Positions 1 through 44,652 of a stretch of DNA of 44,652 bases are shown piece by piece. Every line of letters begins with the position of its first letter. Within the stretch, counting starts at the first letter, position 1. Both the position numbers and the translations under genes were made by a program. The notes below the pieces were generated by a model. That model had not been told where the DNA came from. It saw only the letters and a program-made list of their open reading frames with translations, and did not search any database. The DNA is from a virus. Lineage: Duplodnaviria; Heunggongvirae; Uroviricota; Caudoviricetes. Location of the stretch: IMG/VR virus record IMGVR_UViG_3300045988_039442, positions 1-44,652 of that record; one strand, given 5' to 3'.

Positions 1-55
1 AGTGACGTCTATGTGGTGCGCGCGTTTTGGGGGTTGGTATGAAATATATATATAT
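1..55. repeat. Terminal direct repeat, left copy (identical to 44598-44652)
   Basis: Exact 55-bp identity between the two window ends; 55 is a common assembler k-mer, so this may be a circularisation overlap. Confidence 0.9.
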
Positions 56-903: not shown

Positions 904-935
904 TTGCACACTAAAATAGAATAGGCTACTATTCA
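904..935 (+). promoter_or_regulatory. Copy of the conserved promoter/operator element, rightward orientation
   Basis: TTGCACACTAAAATAGAATAGGCTACTATTCA closely resembles the 44040-44071 element; sits upstream of the gene at 964. Confidence 0.45.
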
Positions 936-3821: not shown

Positions 3822-3843
3822 ATCTATTTTCTGCTATGACTAG

Positions 3844-3872
3844 TTGACTATTACTCTTACACCAATTATATT
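3844..3872 (+). promoter_or_regulatory. sigma70-type promoter
   Basis: TTGACT, 17-bp spacer, TATATT; about 35 bp upstream of the gene at 3906. Confidence 0.6.
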
Positions 3873-9285: not shown

Positions 9286-9317
9286 CGAAAAAGGCCCCGT
9301 TATGGGGCCTTAGTTTT
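9286..9317. terminator. bidirectional hairpin terminator between convergent portal and DpdA-like genes
   Basis: AAGGCCCC-GTTAT-GGGGCCTT with flanking A and T tracts. Confidence 0.65.
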
Positions 9318-10034
9318 AAGTAGCCATTCCTCTACTGTAGGGGGTTTAACCATCTCTATGGTATGCCTCATTATGGCAGTTCGATGCAGTTTGTCCGTTA
9401 TGTCAGGTAGTCTTGCCTTAGTTTTCGGCACATTTATAGCTACGTTTGTGCTGTCAGCGCTGTCGAAAGGGTAGCGGCTCAAGGCCCGCCCATCCAGCAT
9501 TCTAAGGCCGTGGAGTTTTACATCCAATTTCCTGTTTCTATAAACCGCATTAAATGCCTGGTCCATTCTTTTCCCCCATGACTTAGACCGTATGGCCCTG
9601 TGCGGTCCGCAGCAACCTATCGCTACCCGATTGAACCCACGGCACAGTTTTACCAGTCTTCTTATACTTTCATCGCTGTGCCACACCGGGACCGCCTTAG
9701 ACCTTAACCAATCGGGGACAGTTTCTATTAATGCGTCGTTCTCTTCCTCCGTGCCCTCTATAACGTCCGGTATTATGAACCACTCAATACGACTGAACCA
9801 CTCTCCGACAAAATCATAATATCCTGCCCAGTGGGCGCTCCAGTCTATGTTGTCCGGTGCTTTCTTCCACGTCGAAAAAGCTCCGTTGTCCAACACTAAT
9901 TTACATCTCGTGGCGGCTATCTTTCGTATTTGATCGGGGCGGGCGTATGATACCAGAGCACCACCACCTCGGTACAATGCTTCTATAAGCTCATCCCCAC
10001 CCCAAATAGGGCCTCCGTGGTAATGCACTGTCAT
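9300..10034 (-). CDS. tRNA-guanine transglycosylase/DpdA-like protein (candidate 7-deazaguanine DNA base-exchange enzyme)
   Basis: LVLDNGAFS segment resembles the TGT catalytic-Asp region (LTDSGGFQ) and HGLRMLD a second Asp region; no CxCxxC zinc motif seen; assigned from memory of the fold, not by search. Confidence 0.4.
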   Translation of the reverse strand: MTVHYHGGPIWGGDELIEALYRGGGALVSYARPDQIRKIAATRCKLVLDNGAFSTWKKAPDNIDWSAHWAGYYDFVGEWFSRIEWFIIPDVIEGTEEENDALIETVPDWLRSKAVPVWHSDESIRRLVKLCRGFNRVAIGCCGPHRAIRSKSWGKRMDQAFNAVYRNRKLDVKLHGLRMLDGRALSRYPFDSADSTNVAINVPKTKARLPDITDKLHRTAIMRHTIEMVKPPTVEEWLLKTKAP

Positions 10035-10495
10035 TTAATTTTCCTCAGCAAGAACGACCATAAAGCTCCGCCAAAAACCTTAGCCACGAATTGGCCCAGT
10101 ACGACTAGCGGCATGAAGGCCCCGAAAGCTATTAGTGGGAAAATAAAAGAGTCCACCGCCGAGGCCGCTGTATTACTTACGTTTGACTTAACCAACCACT
10201 TTTTATTGATCAGTGCCTGGTAGACAACGGCATCTATGGCGGCTGCAAAAGCGAAGGCAACAACGCTTGCCATAGCAATCTTGCCGGTTGCCGGGTTTAT
10301 GGAGAAACTTATAATGCCAGTTACTAGTATCAGTATGAATATTTTTTGTACACCAATCCTCTCGTGCAACTTATCTCTTATTACGAAATCAAGCCCAATA
10401 AGTAGAAAGGCGTTTACCGGTGTCGCCCACGGACCAAACACAGTTACCGAAAAGTTAGCGGCGCATATCGCCGCTACGTAAATTGCATACATCAT
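10031..10495 (-). CDS. small polytopic membrane protein, possibly YhhQ/COG1738-type queuosine-precursor transporter
   Basis: Four to five TM helices; stop overlaps the start of the downstream DpdA-like gene (ATGA); SNVSNTAASAVDSFIFPLIAF resembles a DUF165 motif as I recall it. Confidence 0.35.
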   Translation of the reverse strand: MMYAIYVAAICAANFSVTVFGPWATPVNAFLLIGLDFVIRDKLHERIGVQKIFILILVTGIISFSINPATGKIAMASVVAFAFAAAIDAVVYQALINKKWLVKSNVSNTAASAVDSFIFPLIAFGAFMPLVVLGQFVAKVFGGALWSFLLRKIK

Positions 10496-10499
10496 CTTA

Positions 10500-10658
10500 T
10501 CACCCCCAGTTACGGGCAGCGTTTGCGGCTAGTGCAATCGTTTCTTCAAAAATGTAGTCTAGTTTAACAATCTGGCGCATTTTACGGCGGAACTTACGTT
10601 TGTCTCCGTTTTTCGAACTTAAATTAGTATTTACGGTAATTCTTTTTGCTAATTTCAT
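10500..10658 (-). CDS. small basic protein (52 aa), first gene of the leftward operon
   Basis: ATG at 10658 preceded by AGGAGACG; the same leader is found at 12463 and 43623. Confidence 0.4.
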   Translation of the reverse strand: MKLAKRITVNTNLSSKNGDKRKFRRKMRQIVKLDYIFEETIALAANAARNWG

Positions 10659-10682
10659 TTTTCGTCTCCTGTTTAAGTTAAC

Positions 10683-10714
10683 TGAATAGTACCCTATTAT
10701 ATTGGTGTCTGCAA
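10683..10714 (-). promoter_or_regulatory. conserved promoter/operator element, copy 1, leftward
   Basis: TGAATAGTACCCTATTATATTGGTGTCTGCAA; minus strand reads TTGCAGAC ... TATAAT; contains the AATAG-N4-CTATT palindrome. Confidence 0.55.
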
Positions 10715-12487: not shown

Positions 12488-12519
12488 TGAATAGTACCCT
12501 ATTATATTGGTGTCTGCAA
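12488..12519 (-). promoter_or_regulatory. conserved promoter/operator element, copy 2, leftward
   Basis: Identical over 32 bp to 10683-10714. Confidence 0.55.
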
Positions 12520-12585
12520 ACTATTTATTTACCTATTCCGGTTATTCCACCCAATTGTAAATGTTGGAATAAACTATTCGAATAG

Positions 12586-12729
12586 TTGACTTTTCACTAA
12601 AAATGTGCTAAGCTCCACCTGAGCTTGTGAAGTATGAACAAGCGACCGCGGTGCGGCAGGAGAACGGAGCGGTGCGTTAGCACTGAGTGTAGTGTCGCTG
12701 CCCGCATTCGGAAGGGCCATACTCTATTG
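12586..12729 (+). ncRNA. conserved structured non-coding element, paralogue A
   Basis: About 80% identical to 43731-43873; own TTGACT-N17-TAAGCT promoter; indels not in multiples of 3; hairpins with compensatory changes. Confidence 0.45.
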
Positions 12730-12792
12730 CTTGTGTAAAAAGTAGCTGGTTTACTGAGATTACGCCGTTTCTATGTTTAAATGATAAGGACT

Positions 12793-12820
12793 AGCGCCCC
12801 GCTTTAAGGCGGGGCTTTAC
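12793..12820 (+). terminator. rho-independent terminator
   Basis: GCCCCGC-TTTAAG-GCGGGGC followed by TTTACTT. Confidence 0.55.
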
Positions 12821-12839
12821 TTATCGAGAAAGGAGAAAC

Positions 12840-19759: not shown

Positions 19760-20329
19760 TCACGCATTTGGATAAATCCCCAGGATTCTATTAGCAATCG
19801 CAGCCGCTGTTAATGTAATCTCGCCTGGGATGACCACAACGTCATGGCATACCGCACCATCAATATCGTACAGGTAACCACGACTATCCCCGTCAAACGT
19901 ATAGCCGTCTCTGTGCAAGCGAACGATTCTTACATCATGCCCCGCGGCGACGATGGGGGCCACTTCACTGGCGAATCCACCGTCGGACACTACAAAAACT
20001 TCGTCGCCGTCGGACAAGTTTCCGGCAAGATACTTACCGAAATAATCGTCACCGAATACCGGTTTAATGAATTGCTCAGAAATGGCAATCATGAACTGAC
20101 GACGTGACAACCCATTAAGAAAACCCTCTGGCTTTTCTTTCCGCGCCCTGTCGTCGTAGCCGTCGAGAAACTCGTGGTAAGTATCCGGGCCTAACGCTGC
20201 AAGAGCGATATTGAACATTGGATTCTTGAAACTGGTAGTCGCATTCGCAAAGCCCATTTCTACCAGCGCCATAGCGAGTGTGTCTTTTCCGCAGCCCGCA
20301 GGACCATTAAGAATGATTACCTTAGCCAT
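19760..20329 (-). CDS. P-loop nucleotide kinase, dNMP-kinase-like (T4 gp1-like GKDT Walker A)
   Basis: N-terminal VIILNGPAGCGKDT; small (189 aa); last gene of the leftward operon. Confidence 0.5.
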   Translation of the reverse strand: MAKVIILNGPAGCGKDTLAMALVEMGFANATTSFKNPMFNIALAALGPDTYHEFLDGYDDRARKEKPEGFLNGLSRRQFMIAISEQFIKPVFGDDYFGKYLAGNLSDGDEVFVVSDGGFASEVAPIVAAGHDVRIVRLHRDGYTFDGDSRGYLYDIDGAVCHDVVVIPGEITLTAAAIANRILGIYPNA

Positions 20330-20814
20330 TATTTATTGCTCCCGTGTGGTTTTAAGTGAGTAGAGTTCCCGTTACAGTCGTATTCAGTAACCGCGTGCGT
20401 CGTGATTCCTAAGCCACGGAAATGCTTTATCACCGCTGGGGAGTCATCGAACGCACACAAGATTCTTTCCAGCCCGATAGCGCGCAACACCTCTTCTTTA
20501 ATTACGATGTCTTTTCTGTTGTCGTGTTTGCTGCGCATGATTAGCTGATAAAATTCGACGCGGTGGCGCTGCAACCACATTCTGGTTTCTTTTTCTGCGT
20601 CATCACTGCGACCGGTTAAAATAATAGCGGCGTATCGCCGATTAAGGGCGTTACACAGCTCGATATTATCTCTAATTGGTTCATCATCTTTGCACGCCAT
20701 GTTAAATGGCTTCCACGCCCATGTTTCGTTGTAGTTATCTTTCGGCAGAAGGTGCAAACGATGTGTCCCATCCGCCAATGTCCCGTCTAAATCGAAAATT
20801 ACAATATCTTTCAT
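20329..20814 (-). CDS. HAD-family phosphatase resembling the polynucleotide kinase 3'-phosphatase domain
   Basis: DLDGTL motif at the N-terminus; the RKDIVIKEEV ... FDDSPAVI segment resembles the T4 Pnk phosphatase domain from memory. Confidence 0.5.
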   Translation of the reverse strand: MKDIVIFDLDGTLADGTHRLHLLPKDNYNETWAWKPFNMACKDDEPIRDNIELCNALNRRYAAIILTGRSDDAEKETRMWLQRHRVEFYQLIMRSKHDNRKDIVIKEEVLRAIGLERILCAFDDSPAVIKHFRGLGITTHAVTEYDCNGNSTHLKPHGSNK

Positions 20815-21941
20815 CCCAACATCTCCGGTGAAATAGTTAAACGTGCAACCTCGCCGTATTCGGCGCTATAAGTAATTACATTTGCACTGCGTCCCGACAT
20901 CCACCCACCGCGAGAAGCATATGCATCTTTCGCCGCGAGAGTGCGATGCTGCTCAACAATCATGTTACGGCTTTCTACAATCTTCTGGTGGTGCAGGTGC
21001 CCAACGTGGGCGTAGCTATAAACGCTCTCGCCGAACGCTTTGCGGAACTTAGCAATCATAACCGGTTCGATAGCGTCAAATCGCGCCTTATGCCCGTGGT
21101 GAAAGAACAATGTCGTTTTGCCGTGTTGCACCATCTTGTAAACATCCGGCGATGTATCCACTGTCACTCGGCTGTCGTTTGAGTATAAAGTCGTGAACAT
21201 TTCCGCCAGCCATACAGACCCTACAGGGTCGTGATTTCCTTGCACGATAAGCAAGCGAACAGATTTATGCTTAACCAGTGCCATATCAACAACACGGCGA
21301 ACCATACGAATCATGTAGCGGACAAGTTTCTGGTAGCGAGTGTCTGCGTCCAACACATGACGCGACTCAGGGGTAACGGCATCAAGACTATCGAAGTGTG
21401 CGAAGTCCCCCAGCAGGTTAATAACCCCAGTTCCAGCATCTGGTGCTTTCTGAAACGCCGCATCGAACCAACGGGAGAACAAGTCTTCAGCAATCTTCAT
21501 ATCCCAGTCGTCGCCGCTCTCGTCGGCCCAGGCCAGCATACCGAGATGGAAATCAGATACAGTGTAAAGATTGAGTAGTTTATCGTCACGTTTGGTGCGA
21601 GCGGCTTTAACAGGTGCAACCGGCGTAATCTCCGACTTCATACCTTCGATTACGGCTTTCATTAATTCTACCTGACGTTCGGCATCGGTGTCGGTCTTAA
21701 CCCATTGCAACTTAGTATTGCCGAACTCGTCCACCAGAGACGACGTGCCTTTAATCTTGTAGCCGTCCGGAACAAGGTGGCTAACGTCCAGCCCGTGGCC
21801 TACGCCTTTCTTTGCCAGCTTCGCTTTACGGATTCTGATAACGCGGTCTGAGACGCCGTATTTACGAGCTATATCGATATTCCTCACACCGGCGTTCAAT
21901 TCTTCCTGTAACTGCTCGTCGGTTATTTTCTTCCGGGCCAT
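20811..21941 (-). CDS. calcineurin-like metallophosphoesterase with N-terminal HTH domain
   Basis: Motifs SDFHLG, GDFAHF, GNHD, HHGH and GHLHH; RBS ACGAGGAAG. Confidence 0.6.
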   Translation of the reverse strand: MARKKITDEQLQEELNAGVRNIDIARKYGVSDRVIRIRKAKLAKKGVGHGLDVSHLVPDGYKIKGTSSLVDEFGNTKLQWVKTDTDAERQVELMKAVIEGMKSEITPVAPVKAARTKRDDKLLNLYTVSDFHLGMLAWADESGDDWDMKIAEDLFSRWFDAAFQKAPDAGTGVINLLGDFAHFDSLDAVTPESRHVLDADTRYQKLVRYMIRMVRRVVDMALVKHKSVRLLIVQGNHDPVGSVWLAEMFTTLYSNDSRVTVDTSPDVYKMVQHGKTTLFFHHGHKARFDAIEPVMIAKFRKAFGESVYSYAHVGHLHHQKIVESRNMIVEQHRTLAAKDAYASRGGWMSGRSANVITYSAEYGEVARLTISPEMLG

Positions 21942-22006
21942 GCTTACTTCCTCGTGTTTAGGATTTGTCCTATTTAACCATAGTGCATTCCTTTAAATAA
22001 AGGCGA

Positions 22007-22333
22007 CTATTTACTTTCCGCGCCTATCGCCCACCCGGTCATTACCATTTGCAGACGGGTAGCCGTTAGTAGGCTGTAAAACGCGTCTCCGTTTTTCTCT
22101 ACCGAACGTATTACCGTGTATGTTACGGCTTGAGGAGGTAAGCCCGATTTACCAACCTCTACGGCAGCCTCACACTCGCCAACTGTAGAGTCCTTAAATG
22201 CCTTTACGATAGTAGTGTCGGCTTTCTCAAGCACGCCAGAAGTCATAAGAACAGATTCACTAAATACCTGTTCGCACGGGGACCCAAAAGTAGCAAAAGA
22301 CATAAACCCCAGAGCCAATACTAATTTACGCAT
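22007..22333 (-). CDS. small secreted/periplasmic protein with signal peptide
   Basis: N-terminal MRKLVLALGFMSFATFG signal-like segment; first gene after the conserved promoter. Confidence 0.5.
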   Translation of the reverse strand: MRKLVLALGFMSFATFGSPCEQVFSESVLMTSGVLEKADTTIVKAFKDSTVGECEAAVEVGKSGLPPQAVTYTVIRSVEKNGDAFYSLLTATRLQMVMTGWAIGAESK

Positions 22334-22358: not shown

Positions 22359-22390
22359 TGAATAGTACCCTATTATATTGGGGTGTGCAA
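22359..22390 (-). promoter_or_regulatory. conserved promoter/operator element, copy 3, leftward
   Basis: TGAATAGTACCCTATTATATTGGGGTGTGCAA; drives the four-gene leftward operon 22333 to 19760. Confidence 0.55.
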
Positions 22391-34307: not shown

Positions 34308-34604
34308 TTAGGGTATGTGTTTACTATAATAGTCCGCTATTAGGGTGTCAACCTGTTTAAACGAACCAACGACAAAAACATTCGCGCCGCGTTTACGCAT
34401 CCGCTCGTGCTCGCGTAGCTGGTGCGGGTCGGGCTTCGTGTTTTCGTCTTTCTTAACCTCGACGAACCAGATGATGCCGTCGGGGAGAATTACCAGCAGG
34501 TCGGGAGCACCGGAACGTCCTTCGTAGGAGAGCTTGCGAACGAGGCCCCCCAGGGCCTCGAACCTCTCTTTCGCGTATTTCTGCACGCGACCCTCTTTAG
34601 TCAT
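34308..34604 (-). CDS. VRR-NUC domain nuclease
   Basis: PDLLVILPDG ... WFVEVK is a PD-(D/E)XK core typical of VRR-NUC; ATG at 34604 within ORF 34308..34784. Confidence 0.6.
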   Translation of the reverse strand: MTKEGRVQKYAKERFEALGGLVRKLSYEGRSGAPDLLVILPDGIIWFVEVKKDENTKPDPHQLREHERMRKRGANVFVVGSFKQVDTLIADYYSKHIP

Positions 34605-37889: not shown

Positions 37890-37915
37890 GATTAGAAATA
37901 TAATAGCTAACTATT
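37890..37915 (+). promoter_or_regulatory. degenerate copy of the promoter/operator element (AATAG-N4-CTATT with TATAAT)
   Basis: AAATATAATAGCTAACTATTCAGG; nearly identical to the site at 40491-40516; orientation and function unclear. Confidence 0.35.
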
Positions 37916-37921
37916 CAGGTG

Positions 37922-39962: not shown

Positions 39963-40463
39963 TTATTCTTCTTCGAAATACTTGTTCTTGATTGCCGTCA
40001 GGCGTTTCAGGTATTCAGCCAGGTCTTCGTCTTTAATCGCGGCAATCTTCATTTTCTTACCGGTGAACTCTTCCAGCAGTTCATCGGAGTCATCGCACGC
40101 GGCATCGCTCGGACCTTCGTTAATCGCATCGTCGATAGCCTGAATCTGGTCACGCAGAGACTGGTAATCAACTTCTTCCTTCTCTTCTTCCGGCTCCGGT
40201 GTTGGTTCCTCTACTTTAGCTTTCCGCGGCTTGCGTTTCGGCTTCTCTTCTTCTGCCGGTTTAGTGTCGACGATGTCTTCACCTTCAACCGGGATTTCTT
40301 TTGTTTCTTCTTCAGCGCACTCGGCTACCGCTTCTTTGGCATACGCTACCGTCTCTACTTCCAGCGGCGCGGAAACCTGAACAACTTGTTTCGCGCTGTT
40401 CGCAGCAATCAGTTCATGAGCAACTACGAAACGTTCCAGTAATGCTAAGAATTTCTCTAACAT
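39963..40463 (-). CDS. acidic hypothetical protein
   Basis: ORF track entry; Glu/Pro/Lys-rich central region. Confidence 0.5.
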   Translation of the reverse strand: MLEKFLALLERFVVAHELIAANSAKQVVQVSAPLEVETVAYAKEAVAECAEEETKEIPVEGEDIVDTKPAEEEKPKRKPRKAKVEEPTPEPEEEKEEVDYQSLRDQIQAIDDAINEGPSDAACDDSDELLEEFTGKKMKIAAIKDEDLAEYLKRLTAIKNKYFEEE

Positions 40464-40490: not shown

Positions 40491-40562
40491 GCTAACTATA
40501 ATAGCTAACTATTCACGATGTCAATGGGCTTTTCTAAAATAATTAATATGGTACTATTCACA
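40491..40562 (+). promoter_or_regulatory. promoter/operator region of the XRE regulator: two AATAG-like palindromic sites plus TATAAT
   Basis: TATAAT at 40497-40502 within CTAACTATAATAGCTAACTATTCACG; second site AATATGGTACTATTCAC at 40545-40561 sits between promoter and RBS. Confidence 0.45.
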
Positions 40563-40588
40563 TATCAACTAACTAAGGAGTAATTGAC

Positions 40589-40804
40589 ATGCAACCATCT
40601 GAACTAGGCATCCGTGTAGAACAACGCCGTAAAGAACTCGGCATCTCACAGCGCCGTCTGGCTGTTCTGGCCGGCGTTTCCCAGGGTGCGATTAACCAGC
40701 TTGCGCTCGGCGTAACTCAGGACGTCCGCCCGGCGACGCTGTTTAAACTGGCGGAAGTGCTGGAAGTAGACGCCAAGTGGCTGGCGTTCGGTGAAGGGGC
40801 TTAA
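40589..40804 (+). CDS. XRE-family (Cro/CI-type) helix-turn-helix transcriptional regulator
   Basis: LGISQRRLAVLAGVSQGAINQL HTH; RBS AAGGAG; only + strand gene inside the replication block. Confidence 0.7.
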   Translation: MQPSELGIRVEQRRKELGISQRRLAVLAGVSQGAINQLALGVTQDVRPATLFKLAEVLEVDAKWLAFGEGA

Positions 40805-40826
40805 CGCCCCCCCCCTTTTTTTTTTA
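40796..40826 (+). terminator. terminator hairpin with a C9-T10 homopolymer tract
   Basis: GGGGC-TTAACG-CCCC hairpin followed by T10; C9 at 40807-40815 and T10 at 40816-40825. Confidence 0.6.
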
Positions 40827-40827
40827 C

Positions 40828-43095
40828 CTATTCCAAATCTTCCTCTGTCACTGTCAGCATTTCATTCGGTTCGTATATTGTCTTAGGAATCTTGTTATCA
40901 GTTATTCGGGTATTCAGTCTGTAACGGCCTGGTATTATCTGATTGTTTTCGTCAGTCCCCGGAACAAGATACCCGGCCTCAACCATTTTCTTAATCTTCC
41001 CGCGTTCTATGGCTTCTTTGGAGTTAAACGCCTTTGCGTTGGGGTCAGACTGTGCCAGCTTATTCGCTGCGGCTACCGTGATGCCTTCGTTGCCGTTGTA
41101 GGTTCCTTCCGCCAGTTCGAACGCTGCGAGTATCGTGGCCTCTGAACTGTTGACAGCGTTCTCTACGGTTTTACGTACGTTTTCTTTACCTTCCTTTGTC
41201 AGACCTTCTTCGCGCTCTTTCTCCTCGTCAGTTTTGAACGGCTCGAAACCCCACGGCATCAGAACAAGCGCCTTGTGCGGCTCAGGCAGGTCCAGGTTAA
41301 CGATTGTGCCGTATTCCTCTGTGCTACCCAGGAACTCAACCGCGCGGTACTCTTTCGGGGGTGGCGCTTCACGGAACTGTACCGACTCAAGCACCATGCC
41401 GACAGTTTTTTGTTGTGGGCCGTGTTTGAATTTAGAGTGGTATACGTTTATCTGACGGTCGGTAGCGCGTTCAATTGTCAGTTCCACGTCGACGCCCGCA
41501 TACAGCGCCCCACTGCCGCGGGCTTTCTTTCCACCCTTCGGTGTGTGGTGGACGACGCCCACTGCAGCTTTAGTCGCGTCACGTACTTCTTTCAGGATGG
41601 CGATAACTTTACCCATGCCGATTGCCGTTGATGAACTGTTCTCGTCGAACTTATCAATCGTCAGCGCCAGCGTCTGGTTAAGGGTATCAAACGCGACCAT
41701 ACCGATGGGTTCGTCACCAGCAGTTTCACGCATCAACTTAATAAGGCTTTTCAGTTTTCCGACTTCGCCCATGTCGATGACATGTACATAATCTTTACCT
41801 TCCTCACCATATTTAGCCGCTAGTGCATCAATACGCGTACGTGTGGCTGCGCCGCCCTCACCGTCGATATAGAAATGGTGGCAGCGCTGAGTATCCGCCC
41901 CCGCAAACCGGTATCCGGCGGCGCTCAGGTACATCATCCCCAGCGTATAGAACGATTTGTACGTGCCAGATTCCCCGACAATATCCCAGATACAATCTGA
42001 CGGCATGTACCCTTCAACGACGAAATCCGCCTTTACCGGTTCCGGTAACTCGTCCTCCTCTGAGTCCTCATCGTCTTCCAGGTCGTCCAGGCTGCATGAA
42101 ACAGATTCTCGCGCACCCCAACCGATGGCCTCTGCGACTTCACTGAATGGCATCCCGGTCGCATCGCAAGCGTATTTCCACACCTCTTTCGGCGACATGC
42201 CTTCGGTCGCCGTAATGTCGGTGTCGTGAATCATGGTCACGTTTGGCGCTTCGTACCCCTCTCGCGGGAAGCACAGCAGGAAGTCGTCCGGGCGCGGGGT
42301 AGGGTCGCTGTAGTTTTCGGCGTGTTCTGGTGTAGCGGGCATCTTCAGGCCGCGTGGCGTCATGACACCGCCATACTCGAAGGCCAGTGCCTCGAACGCA
42401 TCAGTAAACGCAGTGCGCAGTTCTTCCGGTATCTGGTAGTCGGATGCGCTGCTAACGTCGACGGCGGGGATACCTTCAAGCAACTCGTACGGGTCAATCA
42501 GGTCGTTGCGGCGAGACCAGATAACCGTAGAGCCAACCGGTGGCAGGTACATCGGCTGCGACAGGGTGAACCCACTGCGGTCAGCACCCATGCCCTTGAA
42601 GAAGTGTTCCAGCAATCCATGACGAACACGGATGATGTCACCACCTTCGACCGGGCGGCCCAGAGGCATGACGACGCGAAAGCGCGGTGACTCGTCGGTA
42701 TGTGATGCCGTGGTGTAAATGCACATTGCCCGGCGGCTGCGCTTAACCAGGCGCACAGCTTCCTGATACTCCTCTGGCGTTGCACTGTCAAAGTCCAGAT
42801 AGGCAAGCGACGATTTGCTTACAGACGCGTCGCAGCGGTAGAAGAAGCCTTTACGCGCTTGCTTAAAGTCGCCTGTTTCCGGGTCTTTTACGGTGCTGTG
42901 CGTCGAGTCGCACGCGGCCGTGATATAGCCAGGCGCGGTCTTAGGGTTAATCCCGCCGCGAACAGCATCGAGCGGCTGGATTAACCCTTTCAGGTCGTCC
43001 AGTGTTGCCGTGTGTGTGGTTCTGACGTTTATATCCTTTTTCTCCGCCCGCGCGTTGCGACGGGACCACGAGTAGGATAAAATCACATCGGACAT
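40828..43095 (-). CDS. replicative primase-polymerase fused to P-loop helicase (AAA_25/RepA-like)
   Basis: Walker A GESGTYKSF in the middle; large N-terminal domain; ATG at 43095 after GAAGGA (ORF track uses GTG at 43137). Confidence 0.7.
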   Translation of the reverse strand: MSDVILSYSWSRRNARAEKKDINVRTTHTATLDDLKGLIQPLDAVRGGINPKTAPGYITAACDSTHSTVKDPETGDFKQARKGFFYRCDASVSKSSLAYLDFDSATPEEYQEAVRLVKRSRRAMCIYTTASHTDESPRFRVVMPLGRPVEGGDIIRVRHGLLEHFFKGMGADRSGFTLSQPMYLPPVGSTVIWSRRNDLIDPYELLEGIPAVDVSSASDYQIPEELRTAFTDAFEALAFEYGGVMTPRGLKMPATPEHAENYSDPTPRPDDFLLCFPREGYEAPNVTMIHDTDITATEGMSPKEVWKYACDATGMPFSEVAEAIGWGARESVSCSLDDLEDDEDSEEDELPEPVKADFVVEGYMPSDCIWDIVGESGTYKSFYTLGMMYLSAAGYRFAGADTQRCHHFYIDGEGGAATRTRIDALAAKYGEEGKDYVHVIDMGEVGKLKSLIKLMRETAGDEPIGMVAFDTLNQTLALTIDKFDENSSSTAIGMGKVIAILKEVRDATKAAVGVVHHTPKGGKKARGSGALYAGVDVELTIERATDRQINVYHSKFKHGPQQKTVGMVLESVQFREAPPPKEYRAVEFLGSTEEYGTIVNLDLPEPHKALVLMPWGFEPFKTDEEKEREEGLTKEGKENVRKTVENAVNSSEATILAAFELAEGTYNGNEGITVAAANKLAQSDPNAKAFNSKEAIERGKIKKMVEAGYLVPGTDENNQIIPGRYRLNTRITDNKIPKTIYEPNEMLTVTEEDLE

Positions 43096-43153
43096 ATTGT
43101 ATATTCCTTCAGCAAGTAATTTGGCCTCGGCGTTCACGCGTCGGGGCTTTCTT

Positions 43154-43444
43154 TTATCTATTGGCCAGGCATTCCATCAAATGTGCGTACTTACGATAAT
43201 AATCTACGACAATCTCATCGCCGAAATACTGATAAACGTACGATAAGTGGTCAGAGACATCAATGGAGGCCGACATTGTGCTGAGTCTTCGGAGACTAAT
43301 CAACTGCAATTCTTCTGTAACGCAAAACGGCGAATAAGAGTCCAGCTTACAAGAAACGTTAAAACACAACGCGTACTTGCCTTGCACTAAATAGACCATA
43401 TAAGAATTGTCGTTCTCTTTATCATGGAATATTACACCTTTCAT
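43154..43444 (-). CDS. hypothetical protein
   Basis: ORF track entry; ATGA overlap with the upstream gene. Confidence 0.45.
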   Translation of the reverse strand: MKGVIFHDKENDNSYMVYLVQGKYALCFNVSCKLDSYSPFCVTEELQLISLRRLSTMSASIDVSDHLSYVYQYFGDEIVVDYYRKYAHLMECLANR

Positions 43445-43623
43445 TTCACGTTCTCCTTAATCCACGCTTCAACTTTATTACGGTCAAATGTACCCGGTAA
43501 ACGGCGGCCCATAACCTTAATACAGCAATCCGGGAATTTACCACTGCGCAACCAGTTATTAATTGTCTGACGGGTCACCCCGATACGTTCTGCTACTTCA
43601 TTCTGGGTCATGTAATGCTGCAT
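43441..43623 (-). CDS. small HTH DNA-binding protein (AlpA/excisionase-like HTH_17), first gene of the replication block
   Basis: MTQNEVAERIGVTRQTINNWL motif; ATG at 43623 preceded by the conserved AGGAGA leader. Confidence 0.55.
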   Translation of the reverse strand: MQHYMTQNEVAERIGVTRQTINNWLRSGKFPDCCIKVMGRRLPGTFDRNKVEAWIKENVK

Positions 43624-43730
43624 TTTTATATCTCCTGTTTGTTTGGTGAAGCTGAGTATAGGATAGCGGGAATGTAAAAGCAACCAAAACGCCACACAAA
43701 GTTACTAAGATACAAAAGATGCTACTGGTA

Positions 43731-43873
43731 TTGACTTTTACTTAAAAATATGCTAAGCTTCACTGAGCTTGTGAGATATCGCAAGCGACCGCGGAGCGGC
43801 AGGGAACGCAACGCGTGCCATTAGGCACTTGAGTGTAGTTCCGCTGGCGCTTTCGGAAGGGCCAAAGTCTATT
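43731..43873 (+). ncRNA. conserved structured non-coding element, paralogue B
   Basis: About 80% identical to 12586-12729, including the TTGACT-N17-TAAGCT promoter. Confidence 0.45.
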
Positions 43874-44039
43874 GTTAATCCCGCCTAAATACCCAAGTCA
43901 CTGATAATTAAAAGTTTCTATAATTGCCGTAAACAAGGTAGAGAGTACTTCACTCCGCTGGGGTGGGCTAACGCCCACCCACTGCGTTGCGTACTCTTTT
44001 AAGAAACGAAAGAATCACAACGGCAACGTAACTATTCTC

Positions 44040-44071
44040 TTGCACACCCCAATATAATAGGATACTATTCA
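44040..44071 (+). promoter_or_regulatory. conserved promoter/operator element, rightward copy driving the early block
   Basis: TTGCACACCCCAATATAATAGGATACTATTCA is the reverse complement of the 22359-22390 element; about 30 bp upstream of the RBS at 44091. Confidence 0.55.
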
Positions 44072-44597: not shown

Positions 44598-44652
44598 AGT
44601 GACGTCTATGTGGTGCGCGCGTTTTGGGGGTTGGTATGAAATATATATATAT
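44598..44652. repeat. Terminal direct repeat, right copy (identical to 1-55)
   Basis: Exact match to the window start; the window ends inside the repeat. Confidence 0.9.

What the first reader, a model, noticed from the sequence alone, without database searches (positions are those of the whole stretch)
40491..40826. XRE-family regulator on the opposite strand of the replication block, flanked by two operator-like palindromes
The only + strand gene in the 12-kb minus-strand replication block is a 71-aa Cro/CI-type HTH protein. Its upstream region carries a TATAAT embedded in AATAG-CTAA-CTATT (40491-40516) and a second half-palindrome AATAT-GGTA-CTATT (40545-40561) between promoter and RBS. 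These are the same half-sites as the genome-wide promoter element. An autoregulated repressor or timing switch in a phage with no integrase is a testable hypothesis.
Basis: partly seen in the sequence, partly recalled or inferred. Interest (0 to 1): 0.55.

Follow-up and report, generated by a model that had tools for sequence, protein, structure and literature searches.

The report
Cro-like repressor with genome-wide promoter operators
A small 434-Cro-like DNA-binding protein of a lytic E. coli phage (Kagunavirus) sits beside two copies of a 16-bp palindrome that also overlaps nearly every other recognisable promoter in the genome, so it most likely shuts off early and middle transcription and limits its own synthesis; this is an ordinary kind of switch, though the operator set appears undescribed.

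Summary
The window is a complete Kagunavirus genome (Guernseyvirinae). Gene 40589-40804 (+) encodes a 71-aa HTH_3/XRE protein. Its closest solved relative is phage 434 Cro, and it is under purifying selection. AATAG-N4-CTATT lies at 40500-40513 and AATAT-GGTA-CTATT at 40545-40558. The motif occurs 11 times in the window against 1.2 expected, always at promoters.

The first palindrome fills the spacer of a near-consensus leftward promoter (TTGACA-N18-TATAGT) for the 166-aa gene and downstream replication genes. The second overlaps the regulator's own extended -10 (TGgTACTAT).

The palindrome meets core promoters in three registers (-10, spacer, -35). Its half-sites are invariant and its centre varies across 33 relatives. 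That pattern indicates a dimeric binding protein rather than a promoter-intrinsic sequence.

Jerseyvirus keeps the motif. Cornellvirus lacks the only other small HTH protein (HTH_17) and carries a shifted motif (TATTAG-N4-nTAWTA) at the same promoter positions. This favours the XRE protein as the binder, but binding is not shown, and Kagunavirus and Jerseyvirus share the operator despite different recognition helices.

Verdict: a new member of a known kind (Cro/434-type repressor-operator circuit in a virulent phage). Interest is moderate.

The parts
40589..40804 (+). XRE/Cro-like regulator gene, 71 aa, monocistronic
   Evidence: ORF. Pfam HTH_3 E 2.3e-12. 434 Cro E 5.4e-7. Five-helix model with pLDDT 80; Foldseek hits to 434 Cro/repressor, SinR, C.AhdI and P22 c2. 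73 synonymous against 13 non-synonymous codon variants among 33 distinct Kagunavirus alleles.
40499..40514 (.). Operator O1, TAATAG-CTAA-CTATTC, in the spacer of the leftward promoter
   Evidence: Exact AATAG-N4-CTATT. All 10 half-site columns are invariant and 3 of 4 centre columns vary among 33 Kagunavirus sequences.
40544..40559 (.). Operator O2, TAATAT-GGTA-CTATTC (1 mismatch), overlapping the regulator's own -10
   Evidence: Half-sites invariant among 33 sequences. The variant T supplies the TG of an extended -10, also kept in the 80%-identical lineage.
40495..40524 (-). Leftward promoter: -35 TTGACA at 40524-40519, 18-nt spacer, -10 TATAGT at 40500-40495; drives the 166-aa gene and downstream replication genes
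   Evidence: 11/12 consensus match. Both hexamers are conserved in relatives. Function is inferred.
40549..40557 (+). Probable promoter of the regulator: extended -10 TGgTACTAT with a weak -35 (40529-40534)
   Evidence: Same layout as the promoters at 920 and 44056, which have TTGCAC 17 nt upstream. TACTAT is conserved in Kagunavirus, a divergent lineage and Jerseyvirus, where a TTGCGT -35 lies 17 nt upstream. Inferred.
40575..40580 (+). Ribosome-binding site AAGGAG, 8 nt before the ATG
   Evidence: Read from the sequence.
40796..40826 (+). Intrinsic terminator after the regulator gene; shields the convergent helicase-primase gene
   Evidence: Terminator scan.
39963..40463 (-). 166-aa acidic protein (phrog_3127), first gene transcribed from the O1-bearing leftward promoter
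37901..37916 (.). Operator in the spacer of leftward promoter TTGACA-N17-TATATT (upstream of the DUF2815 ssDNA-binding protein and DNA polymerase)
34327..34342 (.). Perfect 16-bp operator TAATAG-TCCG-CTATTA in the spacer of leftward promoter TTGACA-N17-TATAGT (upstream of the methyltransferase and helicase genes)
44055..44070 (.). Operator over the spacer and -10 of rightward early promoter TTGCAC-N17-TACTAT
919..934 (.). Operator over the spacer and -10 of the second rightward promoter TTGCAC-N17-TACTAT (small genes and lysis cassette)
10684..10699 (.). Operator over the -10 of the minus-strand island promoter (queuine tRNA-ribosyltransferase-like and YhhQ-like genes)
12489..12504 (.). Operator over the -10 of a minus-strand promoter for a small gene
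22360..22375 (.). Operator over the -10 of the minus-strand island promoter (108-aa protein, metallophosphoesterase, polynucleotide kinase, dNMP kinase)
3838..3853 (.). One-mismatch operator ACTAG-TTGA-CTATT whose centre is the -35 (TTGACT) of the promoter ahead of the terminase and structural operon
   Evidence: The same arrangement is found in Jerseyvirus and Cornellvirus.
12580..12595 (.). One-mismatch operator AATAG-TTGA-CTTTT over the -35 of promoter TTGACT-N17-TAAGCT
43441..43623 (-). 60-aa HTH_17 (excisionase-like) protein, first gene of the helicase-primase operon; rival candidate binder. Its predicted promoter (-35 43683-43678, -10 43660-43655) has no palindrome
   Evidence: Pfam HTH_17 E 1.6e-8. 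phrog_66. Sequence. Absent from Cornellvirus.

Best explanation
The 71-aa protein is a 434-Cro-like dimeric repressor. Its operators are the 16-bp dyads TAATAG-N4-CTATT(C/A).

Proposed mechanism:
1. Host sigma70 RNA polymerase starts at the phage's strong promoters on entry.
2. The regulator is made from its own extended -10 promoter and a strong RBS.
3. As it accumulates it occupies operators that overlap the -10, the spacer or the -35 of 11 promoters. RNA polymerase is then sterically excluded.
4. The perfect operators would fill first. These are the three near-consensus leftward replication promoters (including O1 at 40499-40514), the rightward early promoters and the minus-strand islands.
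5. The one-mismatch operators would fill last. These are its own promoter (O2, 40544-40559) and the sites over the -35 of the promoters at 3838 (terminase/structural operon) and 12580. The result would be early/middle shut-off with negative autoregulation.
6. The helicase-primase/HTH_17 promoter carries no operator and would escape.

Shown here: the gene, fold and family; the motif's enrichment, dyad symmetry and positions on promoters; its conservation.
Inferred: that this protein is the binder, that binding represses, and the order of occupancy.
For: Family and fold:
- 434 Cro is the best solved relative (E 5.4e-7 over residues 6-68).
- The model has five helices. Its Foldseek matches are all dimeric palindrome binders: 434 Cro/repressor, SinR, C.AhdI and P22 c2.

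Operator geometry:
- Half-sites carry about 2 bits per position. The first three of the four central positions carry 0.2-0.6 bits; the fourth (A before CTATT) is conserved at 1.6 bits.
- 31 different centres occur among 253 sites in 37 Kagunavirus loci.
- P22 c2 repressor likewise binds an 18-bp site as a dimer without contacting the central four base pairs (PMC4267663).

A separate factor rather than a promoter feature:
- The dyad sits in three different registers relative to the core promoter (over the -10, in the spacer, over the -35), and in both orientations relative to transcription.
- In the spacer of the leftward promoter at 40495-40524, all 10 half-site columns are invariant. The dyad centre and the 5 nt next to the -35 vary.

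Autoregulatory layout:
- Two sites lie in the 125-bp divergent region. One covers each back-to-back promoter.
- The layout is conserved in Jerseyvirus and Cornellvirus.

Comparative evidence:
- The motif is enriched in Jerseyvirus: 8 sites against 1.1 expected.
- Cornellvirus has no KJ-type 16-mer at 1 mismatch or fewer. It has its own variant, TATTAG-N4-CTAATA: 3 and 2 sites at 1 mismatch or fewer against about 0.03 expected, and 8 and 8 at 2 mismatches or fewer against about 1. These lie at the orthologous promoters.
- Cornellvirus keeps the XRE gene (41-43% identity) but has no HTH_17 homologue even at E = 10.
- Jerseyvirus and Cornellvirus share the host Salmonella yet differ in motif. This argues against a host factor.

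The gene itself is near-universal (563 phage records) and under purifying selection.
Against: - No binding data exist, and none can be produced with these tools.
- Kagunavirus and Jerseyvirus share essentially the same operator although their recognition helices differ (SQGAINQ against SQSLITH). The Jerseyvirus helix is closer to that of Cornellvirus (TQSAISH), whose motif differs. Simple helix-operator covariation is therefore not seen.
- The Cornellvirus motif was derived post hoc from one genome. It is less symmetric (TATTAG on one side, TAATA or TATTA on the other), and its two sites next to the XRE gene are degenerate.
- If every promoter, including the one ahead of the structural genes, carries an operator, a pure shut-off repressor leaves late expression unexplained.
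- Many promoters are near-duplicates of each other (10685, 12490, 22361). The count of independent sites is therefore lower than 11.
Confidence: 0.6

Rival explanations
1. The palindrome is bound by another phage protein. The candidates are the 60-aa HTH_17 (excisionase/AlpA-like) protein encoded at 43441-43623 at the head of the leftward operon, or the NinH/Fis-like protein. The XRE protein would then regulate something else, or only its own locus.
For: - HTH_17 is present in Kagunavirus and Jerseyvirus (62% identity) and absent from Cornellvirus. This matches the presence and absence of the exact AATAG-N4-CTATT motif.
- Its own predicted promoter lacks the palindrome, as expected for an immediate-early regulator of later promoters.
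- The XRE recognition helix differs between Kagunavirus and Jerseyvirus, yet the motif does not.
- NinH-like proteins are annotated in all three genera.
Against: - Cornellvirus still carries a related dyad at the orthologous promoter positions without any HTH_17 gene.
- From general knowledge, excisionase-type HTH_17 proteins usually bind as monomers to direct repeats rather than to 16-bp dyads, and Fis-like proteins prefer an AT-rich centre with G/C at +/-7. The pattern here is the opposite.
- A site between -35 and -10 with an optimal 17-18-nt spacer does not fit MerR-type activation.
Confidence: 0.15
2. The dyad is recognised by a host factor, or is an intrinsic feature of a duplicated promoter cassette, with no dedicated phage repressor. 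The XRE gene would be a relic or would act on host or prophage targets (relatives annotate it as DicA-like).
For: - Several sites are near-identical promoter copies: 10685, 12490 and 22361 share about 35 bp.
- The right half-site overlaps a -10 (TACTAT) in six sites, so part of the conservation is explained by RNA polymerase.
- The flanks are asymmetric (TAT on the left, CA on the right).
Against: - Three registers relative to the core promoter, and both orientations, share only the dyad.
- In the 40500-type promoters the half-sites lie in the spacer. Sigma70 needs no specific sequence there, yet they are invariant while neighbouring spacer bases vary.
- Jerseyvirus and Cornellvirus infect the same host but differ in motif.
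- The XRE gene is under purifying selection and is always adjacent to two sites.
Confidence: 0.15
3. The XRE protein does bind the dyad, but as a dual or graded controller like restriction-modification C proteins. It would set steady-state promoter output, or activate some promoters, rather than act as a temporal shut-off switch.
For: - Fold matches include C.AhdI and C.BclI.
- Two operators of unequal quality lie upstream of its own gene.
- Operators occur on nearly all promoters, including the one preceding the late genes.
Against: - O1 is centred about 57 bp upstream of the predicted start of the regulator's transcript, and inside another promoter. It is not adjacent to the -35 as C-boxes are.
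- Every operator overlaps core promoter elements, which predicts repression only.
- O1-O2 spacing is not conserved: 43, 45 and 55 bp.
Confidence: 0.1

Closest known systems
Phage 434 Cro / 434 repressor N-terminal domain with the 14-bp OR/OL operators
   Same: - Same length (71 aa) and the same five-helix HTH_3 fold.
- 38-40% identity; best sequence match in the PDB.
- The Gln at the start of the recognition helix is conserved.
- The operator is a dyad with conserved outer half-sites and a 4-bp centre of which three positions vary freely (the fourth is conserved).
- The gene is transcribed divergently from another operon, with operators on both promoters.
   Different: - There is no cI partner, no integrase and no tripartite OR.
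- The operators are not confined to an immunity region; they are spread over 11 promoters of a virulent genome.
- The half-site sequence is TAATAG, not ACAA.
- In Kagunavirus and Jerseyvirus the gene is monocistronic and convergent with helicase-primase. In Cornellvirus it heads the helicase-primase operon, the position Cro holds in lambdoid phages.
P22 c2 repressor / P22 operators
   Same: The binding site is a dyad contacted in the outer halves by an HTH dimer, with four central base pairs not contacted (PMC4267663). Fold match.
   Different: c2 has a C-terminal oligomerisation and cleavage domain and maintains lysogeny. This protein is the DNA-binding domain alone.
Restriction-modification controller (C) proteins, e.g. 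C.AhdI, C.BclI, C.PvuII
   Same: A small stand-alone XRE dimer with two unequal operators upstream of its own gene, used as a timing device (fold hits; PMC2647307 listed).
   Different: There is no linked endonuclease or methylase operon. The operators are not adjacent C-boxes, and O1 lies in a different promoter.
GenBank annotations of the orthologue in Guernseyvirinae ('transcriptional repressor DicA', 'Cro', 'XRE family regulator')
   Same: Same gene, 96-100% identical in Kagunavirus records. One genome paper lists it by name only (PMC9787291).
   Different: These annotations rest on homology. No operator, target promoter or role is given in the records or in the papers found.

Membership tests
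Pfam HTH_3 / XRE (Cro/C1-type helix-turn-helix) | Score above the curated Pfam gathering threshold | tested here: met
   47.2 bits against a cutoff of 23, E 2.3e-12, residues 11-65.
Pfam HTH_3 / XRE (Cro/C1-type helix-turn-helix) | Five-helix globular fold with the helix 2-turn-helix 3 motif | tested here: met
   AlphaFold2 model with mean pLDDT 80; helices at 5-17, 21-28, 32-39, 48-57 and 62-66. Foldseek probability 1.00 and TM 0.73-0.80 to 434 Cro/repressor, SinR and CapH.
434-type Cro of a lambdoid immunity region | Sequence homology to 434 Cro | tested here: met
   E 5.4e-7, residues 6-68 aligned to 4-64.
434-type Cro of a lambdoid immunity region | Divergent cI repressor gene and a three-site OR between cI and cro | tested here: not met
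   The divergent neighbour is a 166-aa protein of unknown function that heads replication genes. Only two sites are present.
434-type Cro of a lambdoid immunity region | Temperate context (integrase, lysogeny module) | tested here: not met
   No integrase or CI is annotated in the complete genomes of relatives from three genera.
434-type Cro of a lambdoid immunity region | Dimer binds the dyad operators and represses | not testable with these tools
   Needs EMSA or footprinting and reporter assays.
Repressor-operator regulon (generic) | Dyad-symmetric site statistically enriched, and conserved in half-sites but not in the centre | tested here: met
   11 sites against 1.2 expected. Information profile. 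0 of 20 half-site columns variable against 39 of 125 intergenic columns. 31 distinct centres.
Repressor-operator regulon (generic) | Sites overlap core promoter elements, including the regulator's own promoter | tested here: met
   Promoter scans and contexts. The promoters themselves are predictions.
Repressor-operator regulon (generic) | Regulator and operator co-vary across lineages | tested here: inconclusive
   Cornellvirus has both a divergent XRE protein and a shifted motif. Kagunavirus and Jerseyvirus share the motif although their recognition helices differ.
Type II toxin-antitoxin antitoxin (HipB/HigA-like XRE) | Co-transcribed adjacent toxin gene | tested here: not met
   The gene is monocistronic: a terminator lies at 40796-40826 and the next gene is the convergent helicase-primase.
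Restriction-modification C protein | Linked endonuclease gene downstream and adjacent C-boxes | tested here: not met
   No downstream gene. The operators are 45 bp apart and lie in two different promoters.

The most novel reading that the evidence does not exclude
One 71-aa Cro-like protein and about a dozen operators form the whole temporal programme of a virulent phage that relies on host RNA polymerase throughout. Operator quality and register (spacer, -10 or -35) would set the order in which replication, early, accessory-island and structural promoters are throttled. In Cornellvirus the repressor and its operators would have been re-tuned together (TAATAG to TATTAG). That would be a genome-wide co-evolution of one regulator with all its sites.
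Probability: 0.3. Interest if true: 0.55.

Novelty: new member of a known kind. Interest (0 to 1): 0.4.

Why it matters
Kagunavirus and Jerseyvirus phages are widely isolated for therapy and biocontrol. Their genomes routinely carry a gene annotated as 'repressor', which raises questions about lifestyle. Showing that it is a Cro-type lytic regulator with defined operators on the phage's own promoters, with no CI or integrase partner, would settle that concern. It would also give the first regulatory map for the subfamily: 11 operator-bearing promoters and one escaping promoter. Finally, it would provide a compact repressor/operator pair with natural operators of graded strength for synthetic biology. 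The mechanism itself would be textbook.

Tried and rejected
- TATAAT at 40497 as the regulator's -10: rejected. There is no -35 on the + strand, and the minus strand gives an 11/12 promoter.
- The alternative + promoter TTCACG-N17-TAAAAT: rejected. Its -10 is lost in the 80%-identical lineage, whereas TGnTACTAT is kept.
- The direct repeat GCTAACTAT (40491 and 40504): not enriched, 13 matches against 8.8 expected, and not found at the other sites.
- Whole-genome search for palindromes with one mismatch: too noisy with 5-mers because GC-rich coding palindromes compete. Only the 6-mer and exact versions were informative.
- Recognition-helix against operator covariation between Kagunavirus and Jerseyvirus: ambiguous.
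- Large protein database search: only 20 homologues at E of 1e-6 or lower, all at least 78% identical with an identical recognition helix. No independent lineage was available to test.
- Rfam found nothing in the window.
- Literature searches found no description of the operators and no transcriptome for this subfamily.
- No antirepressor was found among the island proteins scanned.

Full report
**Identity of the window**

The window is a complete, circularly permuted phage genome with an exact 55-bp terminal overlap. It is 89-93% identical at the DNA level to E. coli Kagunavirus phages such as K1H and vB_EcoS_fFiEco02, which belong to the Guernseyvirinae. These phages are described as lytic. 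No integrase or CI is annotated in complete relatives from three genera.

**The gene**

- ORF 40589-40804 (+) encodes 71 aa.
- It passes the Pfam HTH_3 threshold: 47.2 bits against 23.
- Its best solved relative is phage 434 Cro, also 71 aa (E 5.4e-7). The 434 repressor and P22 c2 follow.
- An AlphaFold2 model (pLDDT 80) has the five-helix XRE fold. It matches 434 Cro/repressor, SinR, HipB, the controller proteins C.AhdI and C.BclI, and P22 c2.
- Among 33 distinct Kagunavirus alleles there are 73 synonymous and 13 non-synonymous codon variants, so the gene is under purifying selection.
- tblastn finds it in 563 phage records. Identity is 95-100% in Kagunavirus, about 51% in Jerseyvirus and about 41% in Cornellvirus.
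- Relatives annotate it by homology as 'transcriptional repressor DicA', 'Cro' or 'XRE regulator'.
- It has a strong RBS and a + strand terminator at 40796-40826. It is the only + strand gene in the leftward replication block.

**The palindromes**

- AATAG-CTAA-CTATT is at 40500-40513. AATAT-GGTA-CTATT is at 40545-40558.
- With at most one mismatch the motif occurs 11 times against 1.2 expected; none of 100 shuffles reached 11.
- With 8 exact copies it is the most frequent exact 5-Nx-5 palindrome in this genome, and it is also the most frequent in fFiEco02.
- The full consensus is TAATAG-N4-CTATT(C/A): 7 sites with at most one mismatch against 0.13 expected.
- Half-site positions carry about 2 bits each. 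The first three central positions carry 0.2-0.6 bits.
- Across 37 Kagunavirus loci, 253 sites use 31 different centres but essentially two half-site words, TAATAG and GAATAG.

**Where the sites sit**

| Layout | Sites | Promoter | Position of the dyad |
|---|---|---|---|
| A | 920, 44056, 40545 (+); 10685, 12490, 22361 (-) | TTGCAC-N17-TACTAT | covers the spacer and the -10 |
| B | 34328, 37902, 40500 | TTGACA-N17/18-TATAGT or TATATT, minus strand | lies in the spacer |
| C | 3839, 12581 | TTGACT as -35 | the dyad centre TTGA belongs to the -35 |

The three layout B promoters are the three best sigma70-like matches in the whole window, each 11/12. The dyad therefore meets the core promoter in three registers and in both orientations relative to transcription. 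This argues for an independent binding site and against a by-product of promoter sequence.

- The TATAAT at 40497-40502 has no -35 on the + strand.
- On the minus strand the region reads TTGACA (40524-40519), an 18-nt spacer, then TATAGT (40500-40495). An RBS and the ATG of the 166-aa gene at 40463 follow.
- O1 is therefore the operator of the divergent leftward promoter.
- The regulator's own promoter is best placed at the -10 TACTAT (40552-40557). It aligns base for base with the promoters at 920 and 44056 down to the RBS.
- It lacks a good -35 but has TG at -15/-14 (TGgTACTAT). That TG is created by the very base that makes O2 imperfect (AATAT).
- The TG is kept as TGcTACTAT in a lineage whose protein is only 80% identical.
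- Jerseyvirus has an 11-bp insertion that supplies a TTGCGT -35 at 17 nt.
- O2 thus overlaps the -10. O1 and O2 each cover one of two back-to-back promoters.

**Constraint**

In an alignment of 33 distinct Kagunavirus intergenic sequences, none of the 20 half-site columns of O1 and O2 varies. By contrast, 3 of 4 O1 centre columns vary, 3 of the 5 columns between O1 and the -35 vary, and 39 of 125 intergenic columns vary overall. The O1 half-sites lie in a promoter spacer, where RNA polymerase imposes no sequence requirement.

**Who binds?**

No tool here can test binding, so the argument is comparative.

- Jerseyvirus has the same dyad, TAATAG-N4-CTATTA: 8 sites against 1.1 expected.
- Cornellvirus has none of that type.
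- At the orthologous promoter positions Cornellvirus carries TATTAG-N4-nTAWTA: 17 strand hits against 4.6 expected. The reciprocal counts are and the contexts.
- The only other small HTH protein of the window is a 60-aa HTH_17 protein at 43441-43623, which heads the helicase-primase operon. It is present in Jerseyvirus but undetectable in Cornellvirus even at E = 10. The XRE gene is present in all three genera.
- In Cornellvirus the helicase-primase is a different, inverted gene (27% identity). The XRE gene there heads the rightward operon, which is the position of cro in lambdoid phages.
- Jerseyvirus and Cornellvirus share a host but differ in motif, which disfavours a host factor.

Against a simple story:

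- Kagunavirus and Jerseyvirus share the operator although their recognition helices differ (SQGAINQ against SQSLITH).
- The Jerseyvirus helix resembles that of Cornellvirus (TQSAISH).
- The Cornellvirus motif was derived post hoc and is only partly symmetric.
- The large protein database offered no independent lineage with a different helix.

**Most likely mechanism**

I estimate the probability of this reading at about 0.6.

1. The protein binds the dyads as a dimer, as 434 Cro and P22 c2 do. The P22 repressor does not contact its four central base pairs (PMC4267663).
2. Bound protein sterically blocks RNA polymerase.
3. Perfect operators on the replication, early and island promoters would fill first.
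4. The one-mismatch operators would fill last. These are its own promoter and the sites over the -35 of the promoters at 3838 (structural operon) and 12580.
5. The result is early/middle shut-off with negative autoregulation.
6. The predicted promoter of the HTH_17/helicase-primase operon (TTGCTT-N17-TATACT, 43683-43655) carries no dyad and would escape.

Everything from 'binds' onward is inference.

**Rivals**

- Another phage protein is the binder (HTH_17 or the NinH-like protein): about 0.15.
- A host factor or a promoter-cassette feature explains the dyad: about 0.15.
- The XRE protein binds but acts as a graded or dual controller of the C-protein type rather than as a switch: about 0.1.

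**Comparison with what is known**

The protein is a member of the HTH_3/XRE family and a homologue of 434 Cro. It is not a member of a lambdoid immunity region, because it has no cI, no tripartite OR and no integrase. It is not an antitoxin or an R-M C protein, because it has no partner gene.

The gene is already annotated in hundreds of records. The operator set and the promoter map were not found in the searchable literature. I rate it as a new member of a known kind, of moderate interest.

Noticed in passing
window 1-55 and 44598-44652: There is an exact 55-bp terminal overlap. The window is therefore a circularised assembly of a complete genome of about 44,597 bp.
   Followed up: yes
window 12585-12835 (+) and 43729-44010 (+): A non-coding unit is duplicated, about 74% identical over about 290 nt. 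Each copy is a TTGACT-N17-TAAGCT promoter followed by 200-250 nt without an ORF, ending in a GC hairpin and U run. Rfam gives no hit. The RNA fold z-score is -1.65 for the first copy and -3.98 for the second. Part of it is recognisable in Jerseyvirus SB3. It is a candidate phage small RNA or structured leader. The 12581 copy has the operator over its -35; the 43729 copy has lost the left half-site.
   Followed up: partly
window 9300-10660 (-): A minus-strand island inside the structural module encodes a queuine tRNA-ribosyltransferase-like protein (phrog_887, E 2.9e-84) and a Vut_1/YhhQ-like transporter (Pfam E 2.5e-9). This may be a 7-deazaguanine DNA-modification module. It is driven by an operator-bearing promoter.
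   Followed up: partly
window 19760-22333 (-): A second minus-strand island encodes a dNMP kinase, a polynucleotide kinase, a metallophosphoesterase and a 108-aa protein of unknown function. It lies behind the operator-bearing promoter at 22361.
   Followed up: partly
window 43441-43623 (-) and its promoter at 43655-43683: A 60-aa HTH_17/excisionase-like protein is the first gene of the helicase-primase operon. Its predicted promoter is the only clear one without the palindrome. The gene is absent from Cornellvirus.
   Followed up: partly
L004 34354-37005 (Cornellvirus VSiA) compared with window 40828-43137: The helicase-primase of Cornellvirus is only 27% identical and is inverted relative to Kagunavirus and Jerseyvirus. 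There the XRE gene heads the operon that contains it. This looks like a module replacement at the regulator locus.
   Followed up: partly
L002 25253-27718 and 28312-31410 (Jerseyvirus Ent1): The record annotates inteins in the helicase and DNA polymerase genes of Ent1. The window's orthologues are of normal length, 580 and 732 aa.
   Followed up: no
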